NCBI GenBank assembly: GCA_019058445.1
Contig: JAHPZA010000006.1
Span: 576,001 to 640,000, forward strand
Source of the DNA: Promethearchaeota archaeon
GTDB lineage: Archaea; Asgardarchaeota; Lokiarchaeia; Sigyniarchaeales; SOKP01
DNA: 64,000 nucleotides
Reading direction: 5' to 3'
The position numbers and the translations under genes were made by a program. Below, piece by piece: positions 49,231 to 58,045 of this stretch (its first letter is position 1; each line of letters begins with the position of its first letter). The notes under the pieces are model-generated. The model was not told where the DNA came from, searched no databases, and saw only the letters and a program-made list of their open reading frames with translations.

Positions 49231-50496
49231 TTATTTGCCAAAAGCTCTCTTTATTAGATCAACACGTTTTTTTGCTTTCTCTAAATTAATCTGTGCCATG
49301 CTAGGGGAATCATTTAATATAAAAGGATATTTTGCTACTAATTTTCTCTCATTATCTTCAAGAACTTCCTTTTTATTCAATTTATCAATAATTATCAATA
49401 ATTCATTATAATTCTTTGATGCCGCATTTTCATAGAGTTGATTTATCATGAATTCTGAAACGGACTCTTCTCTAATTTCGGTTAAATATTCATTTTTTTT
49501 TTCCACTAAATCTTTTCGATTATCTAAAATTTTGATATCTTCTTTCATACTAACCTTTGTATTATGCGTCATCCCTATTGAATTATTACTTTCTGGAGTC
49601 GCAAACGCTGTTGATAATATATATTCACCTGATTCAATTATATTAAGCAAAGTATCAGTAATTTCATTACTGATATCATTAAGATCCGCATTTAAAAAAT
49701 GTTTGAAAATACCCATTTTTAATAGTTGTTTAATATCATTAACTTCCCAATTTTCAGTGTATTTTACAAGTGTGTGAATATCAAACACAATTTTTGAATT
49801 CTTTTCTGCAAAATCTTTTAGGTAGGTTTCTCGCTCCACACTATTTAGAAATGGAATTTTAATAAAGAGATCAAATACATTAAATATTCTTTCTGAAATG
49901 TGCACTAGTTCTTCATAATCGTAATTTAGCCAAACAAGTATAGAATTATTATTGATAAAATTAAATTTTCTATTTTTATTATAAAATAAATCTAAAAAAT
50001 TATCTAAAATACTTATATTTTGCAAACTGTCATTCAATTTAGGTTTCTGATTGATTAAAATTAACTTTTTATTGATAGTTTCATCATTTTTAGAATCCTT
50101 GTGTTTTGCATTTTTAGGTTGCTGTGTAGATCTATCCTCTATCGGTTTATTAAAATAATCTACGATTTCAGCAAAGCAATTTAAAAACTCTTTAGGACTA
50201 TTTAATACCTCAGCATTATCTAATTCAAAATACTCTAAATAATAATTACTTGAAATTAATTTAAAAAAGTCAATAATATCCGTACCGGGATTTAAATTTA
50301 TTAGAAGCCCTCCTTTTGGATCTAGATAATTAAAAAGTTCTAATTCCTGGGAATTGGAAACTACAAGCTTTATAAAATTAATTATTTCATTATACTTATC
50401 CCGATAAAAGAGACTATTCTTATCAATATGAATCTCTGAAGGTGAATACCTTTGAAAAAATCTTAAGAATTCCGTATTGCTTTTTAATTCTGTCAT
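49231..50496 (-). CDS. Degenerate, probably inactive AAA+ (CDC48/Vps4-like) domain protein
   Basis: PKGGLLINLNPGTD (eroded Walker A), FDLFIKIPFLNSVER, lid-like LVKYTENWEVNDIKQL. Confidence 0.55.
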   Translation of the reverse strand: MTELKSNTEFLRFFQRYSPSEIHIDKNSLFYRDKYNEIINFIKLVVSNSQELELFNYLDPKGGLLINLNPGTDIIDFFKLISSNYYLEYFELDNAEVLNSPKEFLNCFAEIVDYFNKPIEDRSTQQPKNAKHKDSKNDETINKKLILINQKPKLNDSLQNISILDNFLDLFYNKNRKFNFINNNSILVWLNYDYEELVHISERIFNVFDLFIKIPFLNSVERETYLKDFAEKNSKIVFDIHTLVKYTENWEVNDIKQLLKMGIFKHFLNADLNDISNEITDTLLNIIESGEYILSTAFATPESNNSIGMTHNTKVSMKEDIKILDNRKDLVEKKNEYLTEIREESVSEFMINQLYENAASKNYNELLIIIDKLNKKEVLEDNERKLVAKYPFILNDSPSMAQINLEKAKKRVDLIKRAFGK

Positions 50497-51005: not shown

Positions 51006-51539
51006 TTAAATTAGATGTGCTTTTTCAGCTAATATATAGGCCATTTTAGAGAAAATGTTTTGAACATTTTCACCCGTTTTAGCAGAACTTTCGATATAAT
51101 CGCAAATTTTATGCTCAATTGCTAAGTCAATTGCCTCGTTCATAAGGATGGATCGTTTTTGGTTTAAATCTACTTTACTTCCAATCATAATAATAGGAAC
51201 ATCATCCTTTGCATCATTTAATCCTTTTTTAAATAGTGTGAGCCATTCATTTATATTTTTAAAACTTGTGCGTCTCGTAAGATCAAACATGATAATCCCT
51301 CCAGATGCTCCTTTTACATAATCAGGAAGAAGATGTCTAAATCTTTTCTCCCCTGCAAAATCCCAGATTTGTAAAGTAATCTTGTGATCTAGAATTTCTA
51401 TAATATCAATGAAAAATTCAACTCCAAGTGTCATATTTAAATTATCCTTAAAATTCCCAGTAATGTACCGAGTCAATAAGGAAGTTTTTCCAACTCCTCC
51501 GTCTCCAAATATGCATACTTTGAAATAATTATTAATCAT
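51006..51539 (-). CDS. Rab-like small GTPase
   Basis: GDGGVGKT, TLGVEF, WDFAG, SKVD, SAK. Confidence 0.92.
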   Translation of the reverse strand: MINNYFKVCIFGDGGVGKTSLLTRYITGNFKDNLNMTLGVEFFIDIIEILDHKITLQIWDFAGEKRFRHLLPDYVKGASGGIIMFDLTRRTSFKNINEWLTLFKKGLNDAKDDVPIIMIGSKVDLNQKRSILMNEAIDLAIEHKICDYIESSAKTGENVQNIFSKMAYILAEKAHLI

Positions 51540-51779: not shown

Positions 51780-52184
51780 TCATTCAGCAGAATTAAATAC
51801 TTTATTCAATATCTTTAAAAATAACTGTAATTTTTCCCTTTTTAATCCATAATAAGTATAACTCCCTTTTTTCCAACTCTTTATTAAATCCGCTCTCTCT
51901 AACTTCCTAAGATGATGAGAGATTGTAGATTGTGATTTATTAAGGATTGCTTCGAGTTCACAAACACATCTATCTTTCTCTTTCAGCGAGTTGAGAATAA
52001 TTAGGCGTTCCACAGATGCAATAGAGGTGCCAAAATCAGCAATATTTATAAAATCTTCATCATATTTTAAATATTGACCTAAATTCTGTAAATCCTCGAA
52101 ATACTTACTTGAACTACATACACTATCACATGCACATAACATATCCATCAGTTCAGCCTTGCGTTTTGTATTCATGATTAACAC
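51780..52184 (-). CDS. arsR: ArsR/SmtB family metalloregulator
   Basis: DRCVCEL metal box, SQSTISHHLRKL; divergent from the ars genes. Confidence 0.9.
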   Translation of the reverse strand: MLIMNTKRKAELMDMLCACDSVCSSSKYFEDLQNLGQYLKYDEDFINIADFGTSIASVERLIILNSLKEKDRCVCELEAILNKSQSTISHHLRKLERADLIKSWKKGSYTYYGLKREKLQLFLKILNKVFNSAE

Positions 52185-52231
52185 TTTAATGATAAAATTA
52201 GAAGATTCTTTAATTCTCTATATTATATATA

Positions 52232-52288
52232 TAAATCGATAAATATAAATCTAATTGATTTAAATAATCTAAATCGATAACTATAAAT
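52232..52288. promoter_or_regulatory. Putative ArsR operator: two 19-bp direct repeats with an ATCGAT core
   Basis: taaatcgataaatataaat (52232-52250) and taaatcgataactataaat (52270-52288) in the divergent promoter. Confidence 0.5.
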
Positions 52289-52351
52289 TTGACAAATTCT
52301 ATTAATATTTCAAGCCTTAAAAATATATTTTAAAATATAAAAAAATTAAAA

Positions 52352-53098
52352 ATGAAAACTAATTCACTTAAAAAATTGAAAGTTGGAATAGTATCTGATG
52401 GAAAATATGGTGAAAGAGCTTTTGAGAATATAAAGAGGAACTTTAAAGTATACTGGATTCTCGTTCCAGACATACCTTCTAACATCATGTTAGATGATGA
52501 TTTAGAACTTGATATCCCTGATTGCGATTTATACGTTTCTTACGTTAGACATCCAGATATTATCTTGGAATTAGTAGACCTTCAAAAGCCATTGATACTT
52601 GGCGTATTACCGGGTGTTGGTCTATTAAATCAAGCAAGAACCATAAATCCATATGTAATTCATGCTCCCACCATGTGTTCTCTTGAGAATGATACAGGAA
52701 TTCCAGAAATTGACATATTTACAACCTATTACGGAAGGCCAATTTATGAGCCTAAAATTGATGAAAGTGGAAAATTTAAAGAAATAAAAGTAAAACGCTC
52801 ATCATTATGCGGATCTTCTGAAGCAGGAGCAGATTTTCTTTTAAATAAGGAATTCAACACTGAAAACCTTCAAAATTTTGCATTAAGTGTTTGTCATGAA
52901 TGTCGCGCGCCCCGGTTCGGCCATACATGTGATAAGGAAGTTGCTGGAGTCAATCATTTAGTTTCACTTTTAAATGCGATATCTCCTGAAGATTTGTCTC
53001 AGATTGATCAAAATTTAAGGCTTTTCATCGAAAGTATGAGAGATGAATACTCTAAAAGAATAAATAATTCTAGAATATTATTAAATAAAGTTAGTTAA
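52352..53098 (+). CDS. DUF166-like cysteine-containing protein
   Basis: DGKYGERA, PTMCSL, YGRP, RSSLCGS, CRA pattern. Confidence 0.65.
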   Translation: MKTNSLKKLKVGIVSDGKYGERAFENIKRNFKVYWILVPDIPSNIMLDDDLELDIPDCDLYVSYVRHPDIILELVDLQKPLILGVLPGVGLLNQARTINPYVIHAPTMCSLENDTGIPEIDIFTTYYGRPIYEPKIDESGKFKEIKVKRSSLCGSSEAGADFLLNKEFNTENLQNFALSVCHECRAPRFGHTCDKEVAGVNHLVSLLNAISPEDLSQIDQNLRLFIESMRDEYSKRINNSRILLNKVS

Positions 53099-53100
53099 AA

Positions 53101-54183
53101 ATGAGTGAAATAAATTTTAAAAACGACAGAATAAATAAAGCAGGAACACCTCATGAGCTAGGACTTTTCGGAAAGTTTTTACCCTTATGGGTAGCTTTAT
53201 GTATTTTTGCCGGAATCGTCCTTTCTCAGGTTGTTCCCGGAATCAGTGAGACGATAAATTCTTGGACAATAGGGCAAATATCCATTCCAATTGGAATCTG
53301 TTTATTCTTAATGATGTATCCAGGAATGCTGAATCTCCAAGCATCTGAATTGAAGAAGCTTGGTAAAAATCCTAAACCTATCATTTTAACTTTAATATCC
53401 AATTGGATTATAGCTCCTTTTGTTGGTTTAATGATGGCAAGAATCTTTTTACAGGGTCATGAGCAGCTAGTCGTAGCAATTATTTTACTTTCTGCCTCCC
53501 CTTGTACCGCTATGGTCCTTGTATGGGGTTGGATGGCCAGAGGGAACCAAGAGCAAAACGTTACCAATACAAGTTTGAATACCATAACAATTATATTTCT
53601 TTATGTTCCTATTGTTATTCTATTAACTGGCATCCAAAATATTCCAATTGATACAACTCTATTAATAATCTCGTTGATATTTTTTATAGGACTTCCATTA
53701 GCATTAGGAATAACATCAAAAAGACTATTAACGCAAACTAAAGGGGAAGAATGGTTTGAAAGCACTTATCGTCCTATGGTAGGAAAAATGTCGATTGTGG
53801 CATTACTGATAACGTTGATTATCCTTTTTTCTTTAAACGGAGATGTTTTACTTAAAAATCCTGAACTTTTACTCCTAGTTAGCATACCTCTCCTGGTTGG
53901 ATTTGCAATCGTCGTTAGCTATAATGTGATTATTACCAAGCTTTTTAAGCTAAAATATAGAGAAGCAGTCGTTACGGTAATCATTGGCTCATCAAGTCAT
54001 TTCGAAATTGCAATTGCTACTGCGATTGCCATATATGGGATTGGATCTATTGCCGCCTTAGGAACCACAATGGGATTGTTCTGGGAAGTTCCTGTGATGC
54101 TTTCAATAGTTTATTTAGGACGATTTCTTCAAAAACGAGGCTTCTGGGAAGTGAAATTTCCAGAAGATTCAAATAATAATTAA
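53101..54183 (+). CDS. acr3: Acr3 arsenite efflux transporter
   Basis: MMYP, NWIIAP, SPCTAMVLVW, SSHFEIAIA, EVPVM. Confidence 0.93.
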   Translation: MSEINFKNDRINKAGTPHELGLFGKFLPLWVALCIFAGIVLSQVVPGISETINSWTIGQISIPIGICLFLMMYPGMLNLQASELKKLGKNPKPIILTLISNWIIAPFVGLMMARIFLQGHEQLVVAIILLSASPCTAMVLVWGWMARGNQEQNVTNTSLNTITIIFLYVPIVILLTGIQNIPIDTTLLIISLIFFIGLPLALGITSKRLLTQTKGEEWFESTYRPMVGKMSIVALLITLIILFSLNGDVLLKNPELLLLVSIPLLVGFAIVVSYNVIITKLFKLKYREAVVTVIIGSSSHFEIAIATAIAIYGIGSIAALGTTMGLFWEVPVMLSIVYLGRFLQKRGFWEVKFPEDSNNN

Positions 54184-54203: not shown

Positions 54204-55085
54204 ATGAAAGATGAAAAAGTAAAAATAAGTATTGTCAAGGATGAAAATGTAAAAAAGGTTGTTAGAGAAAAATATGGAATGATAGCAAAATCAAGCAGCT
54301 CCTGTTGTGCGCCTGTAAACTCATGTTGCACACCTATAAGTTCTTGCTGTGGAAGTTCCGAAACAGATATTATGAGTATGATTAGTAAAAACATAGGATA
54401 TAGTGATGAAGAACTTAAATCTGTACCAGATGGGGCTAATCTTGGGCTAGGATGTGGAAACCCTGTAGCCTTGGCTTCATTAAAAGAGGGGGAGACTGTT
54501 CTTGATCTAGGTTCTGGAGCGGGAATTGATTGTTTTTTAGCTGCTAATAAAGTGGGAAAATCTGGGAAGGTTATAGGTATTGATATGACACCTGATATGA
54601 TATTGTCAGCTAGAATGTATGCTGAAAAAAGTAATTACGATAACATTGAATTTAGACTCGGAGAGATCGAACATTTACCAGTAGAAACAACTACTGTAGA
54701 TATTATCATTTCCAATTGTGTAATCAATTTAGTGCCAAATAAAGATAGAGCATTTCAAGAAGCTTATAGAGTGTTAAAACCCGGAGGACGCTTGATGATT
54801 TCAGATATTGTTTTATTAAAAGAACTTCCTGATTTCGTTTTAGAATCAATAGATGCTTATATAGGATGTGTTGCTGGTGCGATATTAAAAGAAGACTATA
54901 TTAAATCAATGGAAAATGCAGGATTTACGAAGATTGAAGTGTTGGATGAAACTATGTTTCCAATCGATGTTTTAACTATTAATCCAAAAGTTATGGAAAT
55001 AGTCAAAGAGATGAATATTGAGCCTCAAATGTTAAAAGACATAGCGAATTCAGTAGTAAGCATAAAAGTAAAAGCATATAAATAA
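54204..55085 (+). CDS. arsM: Arsenite S-adenosylmethionine methyltransferase
   Basis: LGLGCGNP, DLGSGAGID, SNCVINL, GCVAGA; N-terminal CC repeats. Confidence 0.93.
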   Translation: MKDEKVKISIVKDENVKKVVREKYGMIAKSSSSCCAPVNSCCTPISSCCGSSETDIMSMISKNIGYSDEELKSVPDGANLGLGCGNPVALASLKEGETVLDLGSGAGIDCFLAANKVGKSGKVIGIDMTPDMILSARMYAEKSNYDNIEFRLGEIEHLPVETTTVDIIISNCVINLVPNKDRAFQEAYRVLKPGGRLMISDIVLLKELPDFVLESIDAYIGCVAGAILKEDYIKSMENAGFTKIEVLDETMFPIDVLTINPKVMEIVKEMNIEPQMLKDIANSVVSIKVKAYK

Positions 55086-55125
55086 TAAAGAAATGAGCGA
55101 ATGTAAGAAAGAATAAGGTGGAAAA

Positions 55126-56775
55126 ATGGCCGTAACCTATATGCGTAGATTGGAGGAAGAACCAGAAACTTACGATTTAAAATTTACAGCTCTCACTAAG
55201 GGACTAAATATCAAAGTTCAAGAGTGGGTATTGCGTCGAATTCCTGATTCCCAATCAATTTTAGAAGTAGGTTGCGGTACTGGCGCTCTAGCATCGAAAA
55301 TGGCACTTAAAGGTAATAATGTTGTTGCAATTGATAAAAACTTTCAAATGATTAATTATGCAATGCAAAATTATCCTTCTGAAGAGAATGTCAATCTTTT
55401 ATATCAAATTGGAACATTTACAGAATTCCCAGTTGAGAAGAATTCAAAGGATATAATTGTGAGTACTTTTATGTTATCTGAGCTTAGACCATTTGAACAT
55501 CAAATATTTTTGCGAAAAGCATGGAGTGCTCTAAAACCAAATGGTCGAATCATATTAGCTGCTGAATTTATTCCTTCAGGAATTTGGAGGATTCCTTTTA
55601 AAATAAAGCGTTGGTGGTTTAAAAAGAAATTACGTAGACTCAGATTAAGAACTACTTTCTTAGTAAAATGGTTTTATAATTATATTGAGCCAATCGGCTT
55701 TAAAATTCAAACCCTAAAAACTTGGAAACACGGTTCCATACAAGCTATGGAATTAGTAAAGCTAGGCAAAGAACCAGGATTTTATCGCCCCAAACCAAAA
55801 AAGTTTAAAGGAATCCGCGCTCAACTAAGGATATATCGATGTTTATTTACTGGTCAGATTGATCATGTTCCCATAGAACCCGGTATTTATCAATCCGGGC
55901 ACCCTAATGAAAATTCCCCCATTATAGTTACAGCGAATTACGAGTATACATACATTAAAGTTATGCGTAACCTAAAAGGACTTGATGCGTGGGTTTTATG
56001 TGTAGATTCCAATGGAATAAATGTATGGTGCGCTGCTCGTGGTAATGATTTTGGAAATGCCCAATTACTTGAAGCAGTGGAGGCAACAGAAATTCGCAAT
56101 CTTACACAGAAAAAAAAACTTTTACTTCCCCAACTCTCTGCTGGTGGAGTTGCTATACCACAATTACCTAGAAATTCAGAAAATTTTCCATTTAAAATTG
56201 TCTATGGCCCAATTTGGTCAAAAGATATTCGGAAGTATAATGATGAACAACCCGTAAGAAAACCAGACTCAATGAAAATTGCTAAATTTACGGTTTCCCA
56301 TCGAATACGAGCAGGGATTACACATACGACTTTTCTTTTAAGAAAAATCTTTCTTTTACCTCTTATAATCATAGCAGGTTTGTTGTTAGCATTAAATTGG
56401 GAAAATAAGTTATGGTGGATTGGAGAATTATTCATGTGGATTATAATAACAAACGCAATTATCGCTTTTTTATTCCCTCTTTCAAATTTTACCAGAAAAT
56501 TCATTAATAAGGGAATTTTCTTTGGAACTATTAATATATTAGTTTTAGGAGGGATTTCTTGGATATTGCATGGATCATTACTCTTTATTCTCTGGAACTT
56601 GAGTTTTTATTTTTGGATTGCATTTTTTTCCACTATGTCTTTTAGCGGATATACAATGTCAACAAGTCCAAGGGAAATTCAAACCGAATATAGGTTGTTT
56701 TTGATGGTAAATAAAATTTTACTTATTATAAGCTTATTTTTTTTAGCTTTTGGAATAATATTTTATATAATTTAA
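55126..56775 (+). CDS. hgcA: Class I SAM methyltransferase fused to an HgcA-like corrinoid protein (cap helix NVWCAARG plus TM domain)
   Basis: LEVGCGTG; EPGIY, SPIIVTANY, GINVWCAA, LLLPQLSAGGV, YGPI; C-terminal TM helices ending in ST..SP.EI. Confidence 0.8.
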   Translation: MAVTYMRRLEEEPETYDLKFTALTKGLNIKVQEWVLRRIPDSQSILEVGCGTGALASKMALKGNNVVAIDKNFQMINYAMQNYPSEENVNLLYQIGTFTEFPVEKNSKDIIVSTFMLSELRPFEHQIFLRKAWSALKPNGRIILAAEFIPSGIWRIPFKIKRWWFKKKLRRLRLRTTFLVKWFYNYIEPIGFKIQTLKTWKHGSIQAMELVKLGKEPGFYRPKPKKFKGIRAQLRIYRCLFTGQIDHVPIEPGIYQSGHPNENSPIIVTANYEYTYIKVMRNLKGLDAWVLCVDSNGINVWCAARGNDFGNAQLLEAVEATEIRNLTQKKKLLLPQLSAGGVAIPQLPRNSENFPFKIVYGPIWSKDIRKYNDEQPVRKPDSMKIAKFTVSHRIRAGITHTTFLLRKIFLLPLIIIAGLLLALNWENKLWWIGELFMWIIITNAIIAFLFPLSNFTRKFINKGIFFGTINILVLGGISWILHGSLLFILWNLSFYFWIAFFSTMSFSGYTMSTSPREIQTEYRLFLMVNKILLIISLFFLAFGIIFYII

Positions 56776-56812
56776 AATGAAGAATTAAAAAAAAATCATA
56801 AAAAAAATAAAA

Positions 56813-57124
56813 ATGACAGAATTAAAATCAAATCAAAGTTCATGCTGCACTCCGCAAGCGATTGTGCTTCCTCGTATTTTTATAAATACTTCTACATGTA
56901 CGGGGTGTGGCTTATGCGGAGAAGTATGCCCTTTCGGTCTCCCTAAACAGAATAATTCAGGAAAGTACGAAATACCCCATCCCGAACTATGCACTGAATG
57001 TAGTGCTTGTTTTAGAAACTGCCCTACACAAGCCATTATGATGCAAGAACAAAAAGGATGTGGTTGTTTATGGGATACACGTCAAAGAGCAAAAAATTCA
57101 CAGCAAAATTTATGCTGTGGTTAA
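56813..57124 (+). CDS. hgcB: HgcB-like 2x[4Fe-4S] ferredoxin
   Basis: CTGCGLCGEVCP, CTECSACFRNCP, GCGC, C-terminal CCG; directly after hgcA. Confidence 0.82.
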   Translation: MTELKSNQSSCCTPQAIVLPRIFINTSTCTGCGLCGEVCPFGLPKQNNSGKYEIPHPELCTECSACFRNCPTQAIMMQEQKGCGCLWDTRQRAKNSQQNLCCG

Positions 57125-57147
57125 ACTAAAATTTAAAGTGTATTAAT

Positions 57148-57537
57148 ATGGAAAAAGAAGAATTAAAAAAAATTGAAAATTCTTGTTGTACACAAAGCAC
57201 ATCGTGCTGTGGAAGTGCTGAGTCAGATCTTATCGATACATCAACTAATAAGGGGATTAAAAATGAATTAGATCCAAGTAAGCTAAATGTTGATATATAT
57301 GTTCCTCTAGACGCCTGTGCATGCGAGTGGTCTCAATTTATGAATCTTATTTTTAGTGCCCTTACACCACATATTAAATATATTAAATATGAAACAAAAA
57401 ACTTAAATTCTAAAGAAGCTCGAAGCCTTAATATTCGGAGCAAATGCGTTATAGTTGACGGAGAAAAAAAATATACAACCTCATATGCCTTAAAGAAAGA
57501 TCTACCTAATTTATTGAAAGAAAAGGGAATCCTATAA
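57148..57537 (+). CDS. Cys-rich thioredoxin-fold/ArsD-like putative metallochaperone
   Basis: SCCTQSTSCCG, DIYVPLDACAC, CVIVDG. Confidence 0.55.
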   Translation: MEKEELKKIENSCCTQSTSCCGSAESDLIDTSTNKGIKNELDPSKLNVDIYVPLDACACEWSQFMNLIFSALTPHIKYIKYETKNLNSKEARSLNIRSKCVIVDGEKKYTTSYALKKDLPNLLKEKGIL

Positions 57538-57574: not shown

Positions 57575-58045
57575 ATGAAAAAGATTTTTTTTGATATCAA
57601 TTTACCAATAAAGAATTTTCAAAAGGGTAAGAAGTACACAGTTGAAGTAAAAGACAACGCTACATTTTTAGAATGTCTCGCGATGGTTGATAAGCAAGAA
57701 CTCGAAGATCCAAAATCCATTTTTCCTATAAACGAGGGATTTATCCACAATTATTTACAGTTATTGGTTAACATCGAAGAAAATTATATTTACGATGATG
57801 TAGGGGTATATGCTTATGGTCCGGATGAAAATGGACTTATGAGAAAATTCATTCCAATTAGAGATAATGTAGAATTTAACGTATATCCTGACAGTGAAAT
57901 TCAATTACAACCTGATGTTGGATGTTGATGAGAAGCGGTGCAAGATCGGCTGGATATTGGAAAATTTAAAACAGTCCTACGTAAACGATATGGGAAAGAT
58001 AACGATTATTTTGCACATTACTTTAAAAAAGAAAAAGAAAAATAA
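57575..58045 (+). CDS. MoaD/ubiquitin-like protein, candidate selenoprotein (…PDVGC-U-U-EAVQDRL…KEKEK, 156 aa; 117 aa if the first TGA is a stop)
   Basis: TGT TGA TGA at 57923-57931; frame open for 37 codons to TAA 58043-58045; SECIS-like hairpin immediately 3'. Confidence 0.7.

What the first reader, a model, noticed from the sequence alone, without database searches (positions are those of the whole stretch)
55126..57124. SAM methyltransferase fused to HgcA, followed by HgcB
Seen: one 549-aa ORF joins a class I methyltransferase (LEVGCGTG) to a corrinoid domain with cap helix NVWCAARG and a TM anchor. The canonical cap helix is N[V/I]WCA[A/G]GK, so this is an R-G variant that keeps the Co-ligating Cys. 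The next gene is a 2x[4Fe-4S] ferredoxin with GCGC and terminal CC. Established: HgcAB methylates Hg, and canonical HgcA lacks a separate methyltransferase domain. Inference: the fusion hints that a dedicated SAM-dependent domain (resembling corrinoid-associated CpaM-type methyltransferases) loads methyl onto cobalamin. The substrate could be Hg, As or another metalloid.
Basis: partly seen in the sequence, partly recalled or inferred. Interest (0 to 1): 0.8.

Follow-up and report, generated by a model that had tools for sequence, protein, structure and literature searches.

The report
Methyltransferase-fused HgcA cousin in arsenic operon
This Asgard archaeon has a real, widely conserved gene joining a SAM methyltransferase to a membrane vitamin-B12 protein that is a cousin of, not the same as, the mercury-methylating enzyme HgcA; with its ferredoxin partner it sits in the arsenite-export operon and probably methylates arsenic or a similar metalloid, which is untested.

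Summary
ORF 55126-56775 (549 aa) joins a class I SAM methyltransferase (LEVGCGTG, aa 46-53) to an HgcA-like corrinoid domain (cap NVWCAARG, aa 299-306) and five TM helices. A 2x[4Fe-4S] ferredoxin with GCGC and a terminal CC follows (56813-57124).

The fusion is not an artefact. More than 100 protein clusters and dozens of Asgard genomes share the architecture, and contigs from a second sample bridge the junctions.

It is not canonical HgcA. It scores 166 bits against the 275-bit cut-off and lies outside the canonical NVWCAAGKG clade. It falls in the sister wing with the 'HgcAB-like' fusions, where a CpaM-type methyltransferase is always fused or directly upstream. NVWCAARG is the signature of this subclade.

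In the window's family the pair sits in an ArsR/ACR3 operon (24 of 29 loci). Here ArsM is inserted directly upstream.

Best reading (confidence about 0.45): the methyltransferase domain loads methyl from SAM onto the Cys-ligated corrinoid. The ferredoxin keeps cobalt reduced and presents a thiophilic metalloid, most likely As(III) or Sb(III). Nothing has been tested biochemically.

Earlier follow-ups in this scan reached the same reading on other genomes. New variant of a known kind; interest 0.65.

The parts
51780..52184 (-). ArsR/SmtB-type metalloregulator, divergently transcribed. It has a CVC motif in the DNA-binding region and an N-terminal CxCxxxC.
   Evidence: PF01022 HTH_5 7.1e-17. NF033788 69.7 bits against a cut-off of 55. 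CVC read from the translation. Homologue present in 10 of 13 deeply sampled family loci.
52352..53098 (+). DUF166 protein, first gene of the operon; function unknown.
   Evidence: PF02593 2.4e-26. Syntenic in relatives.
53101..54183 (+). ACR3-type arsenite efflux permease.
   Evidence: TIGR00832 acr3 281.9 bits (cut-off 282.8, so at threshold), E 7.4e-84. PF01758 1e-38. Immediately upstream of the fused gene in 19 of 29 family loci.
54204..55085 (+). ArsM, SAM-dependent arsenite methyltransferase with an N-terminal Cys-pair tail. Inserted between acr3 and the fused gene in this genome.
   Evidence: NF008823 347.3 bits against a cut-off of 263. No ArsM was found at this position in the other sampled loci. 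It lies near the fused gene in G129 as well. The junctions are bridged by contigs of a second sample.
55126..56775 (+). The finding: a CpaM-like SAM methyltransferase fused to an HgcA-like corrinoid-binding domain and a five-helix membrane domain (549 aa).
55126..55791 (+). Methyltransferase domain (aa 1-222). Motif I LEVGCGTG is at 55261-55284. G49, G51, G53 and D70 are invariant.
   Evidence: NF043040 CpaM 135.1 bits (cut-off 180) over aa 4-209. Invariant columns in 66 sequences. Foldseek finds class I methyltransferases.
55819..56280 (+). Corrinoid-binding domain (aa 232-385). The cap motif NVWCAARG is at 56020-56043, with Cys302 as the presumed lower cobalt ligand.
   Evidence: PF03599. 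N299, V300, W301, C302 and A304 are invariant; R305 and G306 are conserved in 90% or more. Best structural match is the HgcAB model 9a0b_A, E 1.1e-13.
56293..56769 (+). Membrane domain, five TM helices (aa 390-548).
   Evidence: AlphaFold2 secondary structure. Aligns to the HgcA profile up to position 319 of 325.
56813..57124 (+). HgcB-like 2x[4Fe-4S] ferredoxin. Extra Cys: N-terminal SSCC, GCGC (C83, C85) and the C-terminal pair C101-C102.
   Evidence: NF040864 HgcB 50.8 bits (cut-off 99). Directly downstream in 29 of 29 family loci. In 48 homologues the 8 cluster Cys and GCGC are 100% conserved and the C-terminal Cys 96%.
57148..57537 (+). Small conserved CxC protein (129 aa) of no catalogued family. 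Here it has an N-terminal SCC...SCC tail. Possibly thioredoxin-like (a lead only).
   Evidence: No Pfam or NCBIfam hit. Found in 17 of 29 family loci. C57 and C59 are invariant. Atlas lead: Thioredoxin_3 at 0.87.
57575..57928 (+). Small conserved protein (117 aa) ending in ...QPDVGC; no catalogued family.
   Evidence: No family hit. Found in 17 of 29 family loci. Alignment A3. The AlphaFold2 model is poor, pLDDT 63.9.

Best explanation
A self-contained, SAM-fuelled, corrinoid-dependent methyl-transfer module that belongs to the arsenic-resistance operon. All steps below are inferred.
1. The HgcB-like ferredoxin reduces the cobalt of the corrinoid, which is held under Cys302 of the cap, to Co(I).
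2. The fused CpaM-like class I methyltransferase domain binds SAM and methylates Co(I) to CH3-Co(III).
3. The methyl group passes to a thiophilic metal(loid) held by the Cys pairs of the ferredoxin (GCGC, C-terminal CC). By context this is As(III) or Sb(III).
4. The membrane domain places the reaction at the membrane beside the ACR3 exporter.

Shown here: the architecture, its conservation, its place outside canonical HgcA, the conserved SAM and cap residues, the predicted docking of the two domains, and the operon context.
For: Architecture and catalytic residues:
- The methyltransferase motifs G49/G51/G53 and D70, and the cap N299-C302, are invariant in 66 homologues down to 29% identity.
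- A methyltransferase is fused or directly upstream in every non-canonical HgcA-like locus examined. The HgcAB-like members there pass the NF043039 and CpaM cut-offs.

Coupling of the two domains:
- The full-length AlphaFold2 model has pTM 0.86.
- Folding the methyltransferase domain against the corrinoid domain as separate chains gave a score of 0.65, with the best of 3 controls at 0.00. That mark was reached by 58 of 80 solved complexes and 2 of 110 mismatched pairs. The runs agree in at least 95% of contacts, and the partner pLDDT is at least 83.
- The contacts are at MT residues 121-127, next to the invariant E119 loop, and at corrinoid-domain residues 250-255 and 292-296, next to the cap.
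- The methyltransferase domain has no ArsM-like Cys triad. Only C50 is conserved, and it scores 33 bits on ArsM. Direct As(III) binding by that domain is therefore unlikely.

Ferredoxin:
- It is always adjacent (29 of 29 loci).
- It keeps GCGC and a C-terminal Cys pair. These are analogous to C73 and C94/C95, which canonical HgcB needs (PMC11588087).

Arsenic context:
- ArsR and/or ACR3 are adjacent in 24 of 29 family loci, and ACR3 is immediately upstream in 19.
- An LMWP-type ArsC lies in two loci and an FMN reductase of the ArsH family type in others.
- ArsM is inserted here.
- 27 of 38 family genomes that have the fused gene have no ArsM above the cut-off.

Precedent: purified canonical HgcAB is methylated at Co(I) by SAM (PMC11588087).
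Against: - There is no biochemical or expression data.
- The arsenic context is confined to the window's family, with sporadic cases elsewhere (ArsR in L047, ACR3 near L061). More distant fused homologues and the HgcAB-like wing show no arsenic theme.
- Five of 29 family loci have MarR, an FMN reductase and an MFS transporter instead of ArsR/ACR3.
- This genome has ArsM in the same operon, so a second arsenite methylase looks redundant. Presence of the fused gene does not anticorrelate with ArsM: of 51 genomes, 11 have both, 27 the fused gene only, 5 ArsM only and 8 neither.
- Canonical HgcAB needs no separate domain to use SAM, so the fused domain may do something else.
- The docking result concerns two domains of one polypeptide. 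It is a model confidence, not a measurement, and no coordinates were available to check the SAM-to-cobalt distance.
Confidence: 0.45

Rival explanations
1. It is a mercury methylase like canonical HgcAB. The fused domain only speeds up SAM loading, and the arsenic operon supplies regulation alone, as with the ArsR-regulated hgcAB of Pseudodesulfovibrio mercurii.
For: The cap Cys, the TM domain and a ferredoxin with GCGC and C-terminal CC are all retained. Canonical hgcAB is also found beside arsR, acr3, arsC and arsM in some bacteria and is induced by arsenic (10.1101/2022.10.17.512643; PMC7438021).
Against: It scores 166 bits against the 275-bit HgcA cut-off and lies outside the canonical clade, which has 100% SH-aLRT support. 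It sits in the wing with the HgcAB-like fusions. The one tested member of that wing, from Pyrococcus furiosus, did not methylate Hg (Podar 2015, as cited in PMC10083202). The G-K of the cap is replaced by R-G across the clade.
Confidence: 0.1
2. The corrinoid domain takes its methyl directly from SAM, as canonical HgcAB does. The fused class I domain performs a different methylation, for example a second methyl transfer to the metalloid product or methylation of a thiol or carrier.
For: Canonical HgcAB uses SAM with no extra domain (PMC11588087). The fused domain resembles generic small-molecule methyltransferases structurally.
Against: The methyltransferase always travels with the corrinoid protein, fused or adjacent, across a deep wing of the family. 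It is predicted to dock beside the cap region. It has no conserved Cys set for binding a metalloid.
Confidence: 0.17
3. The module does not act on arsenic. It may methylate another soft metal or metalloid (Sb, Bi, Se, Te) or an organic acceptor. Alternatively it runs as a corrinoid demethylase of methylated arsenicals, with the operon context reflecting a general stress regulon.
For: Distant fused homologues and the HgcAB-like wing lack arsenic neighbours. Some family loci sit with MarR, an FMN reductase, an MFS transporter and a cupin. ArsM in the same operon here already covers arsenite methylation.
Against: Gene spacing with acr3 is tight: gaps of 20-40 bp in this window, and ACR3 is immediately upstream in 19 of 29 loci. 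ArsC and ArsM occur in some loci. A SAM-dependent domain does not fit a demethylase.
Confidence: 0.23
4. The fusion is an assembly or gene-calling artefact, or a decaying relic.
For: None found.
Against: The architecture is the same in 120 of the 120 best clusters and in dozens of genomes with no internal stops. Catalytic residues are invariant. Contigs of a second sample bridge the junctions.
Confidence: 0.01

Closest known systems
Canonical HgcA/HgcB (NCBIfam NF040863/NF040864), the mercury methylase
   Same: A CFeSP-type corrinoid domain with a Cys in the NVWC cap and five TM helices. A separate 2x[4Fe-4S] partner with a Cys shortly after the second cluster and a C-terminal Cys pair. SAM as the likely methyl source (PMC11588087).
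   Different: About 30% identity. Below both cut-offs. Outside the canonical clade. The cap is R-G instead of G-K. A class I SAM methyltransferase domain is fused at the N-terminus. The gene is embedded in an ArsR/ACR3 operon.
HgcAB-like fusion protein (NF043039) with CpaM (NF043040, a 'hypothetical equivalog'); the 'fused HgcAB' paralogues used as outgroups in hgcA phylogenies
   Same: Same wing of the tree. Same obligatory partnership of a CpaM-type methyltransferase with an HgcA-like corrinoid protein. NCBI already names some Hodarchaeales fused homologues 'CpaM'.
   Different: Here the methyltransferase, not the ferredoxin, is fused to the corrinoid protein, and the ferredoxin is a separate gene. 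The window protein is below all three cut-offs (135, 166 and 166 bits). It has the distinct cap NVWCAARG and an arsenic operon context that was not seen for the HgcAB-like loci examined.
Corrinoid iron-sulfur protein large subunit (CdhE/AcsC) with its methyltransferase MeTr
   Same: Homologous B12 domain (PF03599; NF003195 59.7 bits). The logic is the same: a dedicated methyltransferase loads a protein-bound corrinoid.
   Different: CFeSP is loaded from methyl-tetrahydrofolate or methyl-tetrahydromethanopterin by a TIM-barrel enzyme, is soluble and has no Cys cobalt ligand. The genome has its own true CdhE elsewhere (480 bits).
SAM-to-cobalamin methylation in MetH reactivation, class B radical SAM methylases and the Emt estrogen methylation system
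   Same: SAM methylates cob(I)alamin, which then passes the methyl on (established knowledge; the Emt system in PMC7448270, listed).
   Different: None of these uses a Rossmann-fold class I methyltransferase domain to load a membrane-anchored, Cys-ligated corrinoid.
ArsM (NF008823), SAM-dependent arsenite methyltransferase
   Same: Class I SAM fold, and the same operon position in arsenic operons. In this window it is the gene directly upstream.
   Different: The fused domain scores only 33 bits on ArsM, lacks the As(III)-binding Cys set and is coupled to a corrinoid.

Membership tests
HgcA (NF040863, equivalog) | Score at or above the curated cut-off of 275 bits | tested here: not met
   165.9 bits. 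Members of the canonical clade score 376-435 bits.
HgcA (NF040863, equivalog) | Cap helix N(V/I)WCA(A/G)GK with the Co-ligating Cys | tested here: not met
   The cap is NVWCAARG. The Cys is kept, but G-K is replaced by R-G, and this holds clade-wide.
HgcA (NF040863, equivalog) | Placement inside the canonical HgcA clade | tested here: not met
   The canonical clade (41 rows, 100% SH-aLRT) excludes it. The tree is rooted on CdhE.
HgcA (NF040863, equivalog) | CFeSP-like corrinoid domain plus five TM helices, with an adjacent dicluster ferredoxin | tested here: met
   PF03599. TM helices at 390-548. Ferredoxin directly downstream.
HgcA (NF040863, equivalog) | Methylates Hg(II) | not testable with these tools
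   Needs an assay.
HgcAB-like fusion protein (NF043039) | Score at or above 285 bits, and a ferredoxin fused at the C-terminus | tested here: not met
   166.4 bits. The ferredoxin is a separate gene.
HgcAB-like fusion protein (NF043039) | Same phylogenetic wing and a CpaM partner | tested here: met
   Sister wing of 64 rows, SH-aLRT 89. The methyltransferase is fused.
CpaM (NF043040, hypothetical equivalog) | Score at or above 180 bits | tested here: not met
   135.1 bits over profile positions 3-213 of 216; it is the best match. The relative L043 scores 222 bits, and NCBI names Hodarchaeales fused homologues CpaM.
CpaM (NF043040, hypothetical equivalog) | Class I SAM methyltransferase with an intact SAM site, next to an HgcA-like corrinoid protein | tested here: met
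   G49, G51, G53 and D70 are invariant. It is fused to the corrinoid protein.
ars operon (ArsR-ACR3) | ArsR-type regulator with a CVC site, an ACR3 permease, and co-orientation with short gaps | tested here: met
   ArsR NF033788 69.7 bits against a cut-off of 55. ACR3 TIGR00832 281.9 bits against a cut-off of 282.8, so at threshold. ArsM 347 bits against 263. Gaps of 2-40 bp. Synteny in relatives.
ArsM (NF008823), for the fused domain | Score at or above 263 bits and conserved As(III)-binding cysteines | tested here: not met
   33.2 bits. Only C50 is conserved in the domain.

The most novel reading that the evidence does not exclude
This is a second, ArsM-independent route of biological arsenic (or antimony) methylation in anaerobic archaea. 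A class I SAM methyltransferase domain methylates a protein-bound, Cys-ligated cob(I)alamin, a reaction not known for that fold. The methyl is then delivered to thiol-bound As(III) at the membrane beside ACR3. If so, the HgcAB family's native business would be metalloid handling, and mercury methylation would be a side branch.
Probability: 0.35. Interest if true: 0.85.

Novelty: new variant of a known kind. Interest (0 to 1): 0.65.

Why it matters
- Why microbes have HgcAB at all is an open question. So is how arsenic is methylated in anoxic sediments by organisms that lack ArsM.
- This module is a conserved cousin of HgcAB, carries its own SAM domain and is wired into an arsenite-efflux operon. 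That gives a concrete, expressible candidate linking the two questions.
- It also offers a natural test of the 2024 finding that SAM feeds the HgcA corrinoid.
- For environmental surveys it is a caution: hgcA-like hits from Asgard archaea should not be counted as mercury methylators.

Tried and rejected
Context was taken from the genome search and the fetch from genomes instead.
- RNA evidence: no RNA holder was listed for the stretch. Only sediment and soil DNA contigs were available.
- Literature: a search for 'CpaM' with 'corrinoid' found no paper. The search for 'hgcA-like' or 'methyltransferase domain' returned nothing relevant. Two Haft selenoprotein papers that may describe CpaM (PMC9879109, PMC12013261) are not held.
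- ArsM replacement: I looked for an anticorrelation between ArsM and the fused gene in 51 family genomes and found none (11 both, 27 fused only, 5 ArsM only, 8 neither).
- Arsenic theme outside the window's family: neighbours of HgcAB-like loci and of distant fused loci are unrelated genes, such as GNAT, MFS, EamA, a Na/H exchanger, a peptidase, radical SAM and 3-methyladenine glycosylase.
- P129: a profile search against PDB sequences gave no hit at E up to 10. The Thioredoxin_3 hint from the Atlas scored 0.87 and is a lead only.
- P117: the AlphaFold2 model is too poor (pLDDT 63.9) for a fold search. The Atlas hint of DUF4430 at 0.82 is weak.
- ATCGAT-type dyads in the arsR/DUF166 intergenic region sit in a very AT-rich stretch and were not pursued.
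- The tools gave no coordinates, so the SAM-to-cobalt distance could not be measured.
Full report
**What is in the window**

One search lists a 549-aa ORF at 55126-56775 (+), followed after 37 bp by a 103-aa ORF at 56813-57124 (+).
- LEVGCGTG at aa 46-53.
- NVWCAARG at aa 299-306.
- In the small protein, two CxxCxxCxxxCP motifs, GCGC (C83, C85) and a terminal CCG.

Pfam finds generic class I methyltransferase domains at aa 45-140 and PF03599 (CdhD) at aa 234-339.

NCBIfam scores for the large protein are:

| Region | Family | Bits | Cut-off |
|---|---|---|---|
| aa 4-209 | CpaM, 'corrinoid protein-associated methyltransferase' (NF043040) | 135 | 180 |
| aa 249-540 | HgcA (NF040863) | 166 | 275 |
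| aa 248-491 | HgcAB-like fusion protein (NF043039) | 166 | 285 |

The small protein is nearest to HgcB (NF040864, 51 bits, cut-off 99).

An AlphaFold2 model built on 66 homologues is confident (pLDDT 88.7, pTM 0.86). It shows a Rossmann methyltransferase, a B12-type alpha/beta domain and five TM helices at aa 390-548. Its best structural match is the deposited HgcAB model 9a0b_A (E 1.1e-13), followed by many small-molecule SAM methyltransferases.

**The fusion is real**

- The 120 best database clusters all have the same length and domain set at 65-84% identity. They come from Promethearchaeota, Loki-, Hermod-, Hod-, Heimdall-, Odin- and Thorarchaeota MAGs.
- A six-frame scan of 301 genomes of the phylum found full-length matches without internal stops. 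They lie at 52-81% identity in the window's family and order, and at 30-35% identity in two other families.
- Methyltransferase-fused forms also occur in bacteria (Abyssubacteria, Anaerolineae).
- Short contigs of a second sample from the same study bridge the ACR3/ArsM, ArsM/MT and MT/corrinoid junctions with no differences.

**It is not canonical HgcA**

The corrinoid and TM part alone is about 30% identical to proteins that NCBI names HgcA.

I built a tree of 114 corrinoid and TM domains (IQ-TREE, LG+C20, short search, rooted on five Asgard CdhE sequences):
- All NVWCAAGKG proteins form one clade with 100% SH-aLRT. Three sampled members score 376-435 bits on the HgcA model.
- The window protein lies outside that clade, in a sister wing (SH-aLRT 89).
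- That wing also holds the ferredoxin-fused proteins, which score 355-441 bits on the HgcAB-like model.
- Inside the wing the NVWCAARG proteins form a clade of 24 rows (97%).

The R-G cap is the clade's signature. About 145 of 156 fused homologues carry it, whereas about 100 of 149 unfused relatives carry G-K.

Lin et al. (PMC10083202) had already seen Asgard sequences fall in the 'fused HgcAB' subtree. They trimmed the first 327 alignment columns, which is where this N-terminal domain would lie. The only tested member of that subtree, from Pyrococcus furiosus, did not methylate mercury (as cited there).

The genome has no protein above the HgcA cut-off. It does have a genuine CdhE elsewhere (480 bits).

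**The methyltransferase is an obligate partner in this wing**

In the Asgard loci I fetched, every non-canonical HgcA-like gene had a CpaM-type methyltransferase in one of three arrangements:
- fused to the corrinoid protein (this type);
- fused together with the ferredoxin in a 596-655-aa triple fusion;
- encoded as a separate gene of about 220 aa directly upstream.

In 66 fused homologues G49, G51, G53 and D70 of the SAM site are invariant. So are N299, V300, W301, C302 and A304 of the cap.

The domain has no conserved cysteine set like ArsM's and scores only 33 bits on the ArsM model.

I folded the methyltransferase domain (aa 1-222) against the corrinoid domain (aa 232-395) as separate chains:
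- Score 0.65, against a best of 0.00 in 3 controls.
- That mark was reached by 58 of 80 solved complexes and 2 of 110 mismatched pairs.
- The runs agree in at least 95% of contacts, and the partner pLDDT is at least 83.
- The contact patch joins MT residues 121-127, just after the invariant E119 loop that follows strand 4, to corrinoid-domain residues 250-255 and 292-296, which flank the cap.

This supports, but does not show, that the methyl acceptor of the fused domain is the corrinoid. The two chains are domains of one polypeptide, and I had no coordinates to measure distances.

**The ferredoxin**

It is directly downstream in 29 of 29 family loci. In 48 homologues, including the distant ones, the eight cluster cysteines and GCGC are 100% conserved. 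A C-terminal Cys, usually in a CC or CxC pair, is present in 96%. By position these resemble C73 and C94/C95, which canonical HgcB needs (PMC11588087). That correspondence is an inference.

**Context**

The genes run as follows, with gaps of 2-40 bp:
- arsR, divergent, with a CVC site
- DUF166
- acr3
- arsM
- the fused gene
- the ferredoxin
- a 129-aa CxC protein (P129)
- a 117-aa protein ending in VGC (P117)

Among the 29 best family loci:
- ACR3 is immediately upstream in 19.
- ArsR or ACR3 is adjacent in 24.
- The two small proteins follow in 17.

Deeper sampling adds an LMWP-type ArsC in two loci. It also shows a variant neighbourhood in three genomes, with MarR, an FMN reductase of the ArsH family type, an MFS transporter and a cupin.

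ArsM sits between acr3 and the fused gene only in this genome, although it also lies close to the fused gene in G129. Of 38 family genomes with the fused gene, 27 have no ArsM above the cut-off, but the two genes are not anticorrelated.

Outside this family the arsenic link is sporadic (ArsR in L047, ACR3 near L061) or absent.

**Relation to the literature**

- Canonical hgcAB beside arsR, acr3, arsC and arsM, and induced by arsenic, has been reported in bacteria (PMC7438021; 10.1101/2022.10.17.512643).
- In 2024 purified HgcAB was shown to be methylated at Co(I) by SAM, not by methyl-tetrahydrofolate (PMC11588087).
- I found no paper on the methyltransferase-fused form or on CpaM. NCBI's models and names show that curators know the family.

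**Reading**

The best-supported mechanism has three steps:
1. The ferredoxin reduces cobalt.
2. The fused domain loads methyl from SAM.
3. The Cys-ligated methyl-corrinoid passes the methyl to a thiophilic metalloid held on the ferredoxin's cysteine pairs. In this family the metalloid is most likely As(III) or Sb(III), and it is then exported or lost as a methylated species.

I put this at about 0.45. The rivals are:
- true mercury methylation (0.10);
- a different role for the fused domain (0.17);
- a non-arsenic substrate or another direction of transfer (0.23).

Earlier follow-ups in this scan reached the same reading on other genomes. I re-derived it here independently and added four things: the rooted tree with HMM anchors, the cap-motif census, the domain-docking test and the ArsM cross-tabulation.

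Noticed in passing
window 54204-57537: Three proteins of the operon carry N-terminal Ser/Cys-pair tails. ArsM has SSSSCC..SCC..SCC, the ferredoxin has SSCC, and the 129-aa protein has SCC..SCC. In relatives these tails come and go: some ferredoxins have SCC tails and some P129 homologues lack the tail altogether. Vicinal Cys pairs are typical As(III) ligands.
   Followed up: partly
window 57575-57928 and L004-L040 homologues: The 117-aa protein starts with a strand-strand-helix pattern like a beta-grasp fold and ends in ...QLQPDVGC in most homologues. A paralogous form ends in ...HAD and is duplicated in tandem in L033. It has no catalogued family, and the AlphaFold2 model is poor (pLDDT 63.9).
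   Followed up: partly
window 57148-57537: The 129-aa protein has a core of about 85 aa with an invariant CxC-x-W motif (C57, C59, W61) and no Pfam, NCBIfam or PDB-sequence match. The Atlas gives a weak lead to Thioredoxin_3, the family of the organoarsenical resistance protein ArsE.
   Followed up: partly
L057-L063, L071, L072 (other Asgard families): These are triple fusions of 596-655 aa joining a CpaM methyltransferase, an HgcA-like corrinoid and TM part and a dicluster ferredoxin in one polypeptide. Their caps are NVWCA(A/S)CGG. They pass both the CpaM and the HgcAB-like cut-offs.
   Followed up: partly
window 52352-53098: A DUF166 protein (weakly related to the DfsP (seleno)protein family) is the first gene of the operon. 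It ends 2 bp before acr3 and is syntenic in many relatives. Its role in arsenic handling is unknown.
   Followed up: no
window 52185-52351: The arsR/DUF166 intergenic region contains two ATCGAT palindromes (52236-52241 and 52274-52279) within imperfect dyads. They may be an ArsR operator, but the region is extremely AT-rich.
   Followed up: no
window 51006-51539 and 49231-50496: A Ras/Rab-type small GTPase (PF00071, 1.1e-45) lies upstream of the operon, which is typical of Asgard archaea. So does a 421-aa conserved protein of unknown function. The 421-aa gene is syntenic with the operon in six of the related loci examined.
   Followed up: no
L044:8067-8648: In one distant fused locus a 3-methyladenine DNA glycosylase lies directly upstream and co-oriented with the fused gene.
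   Followed up: no
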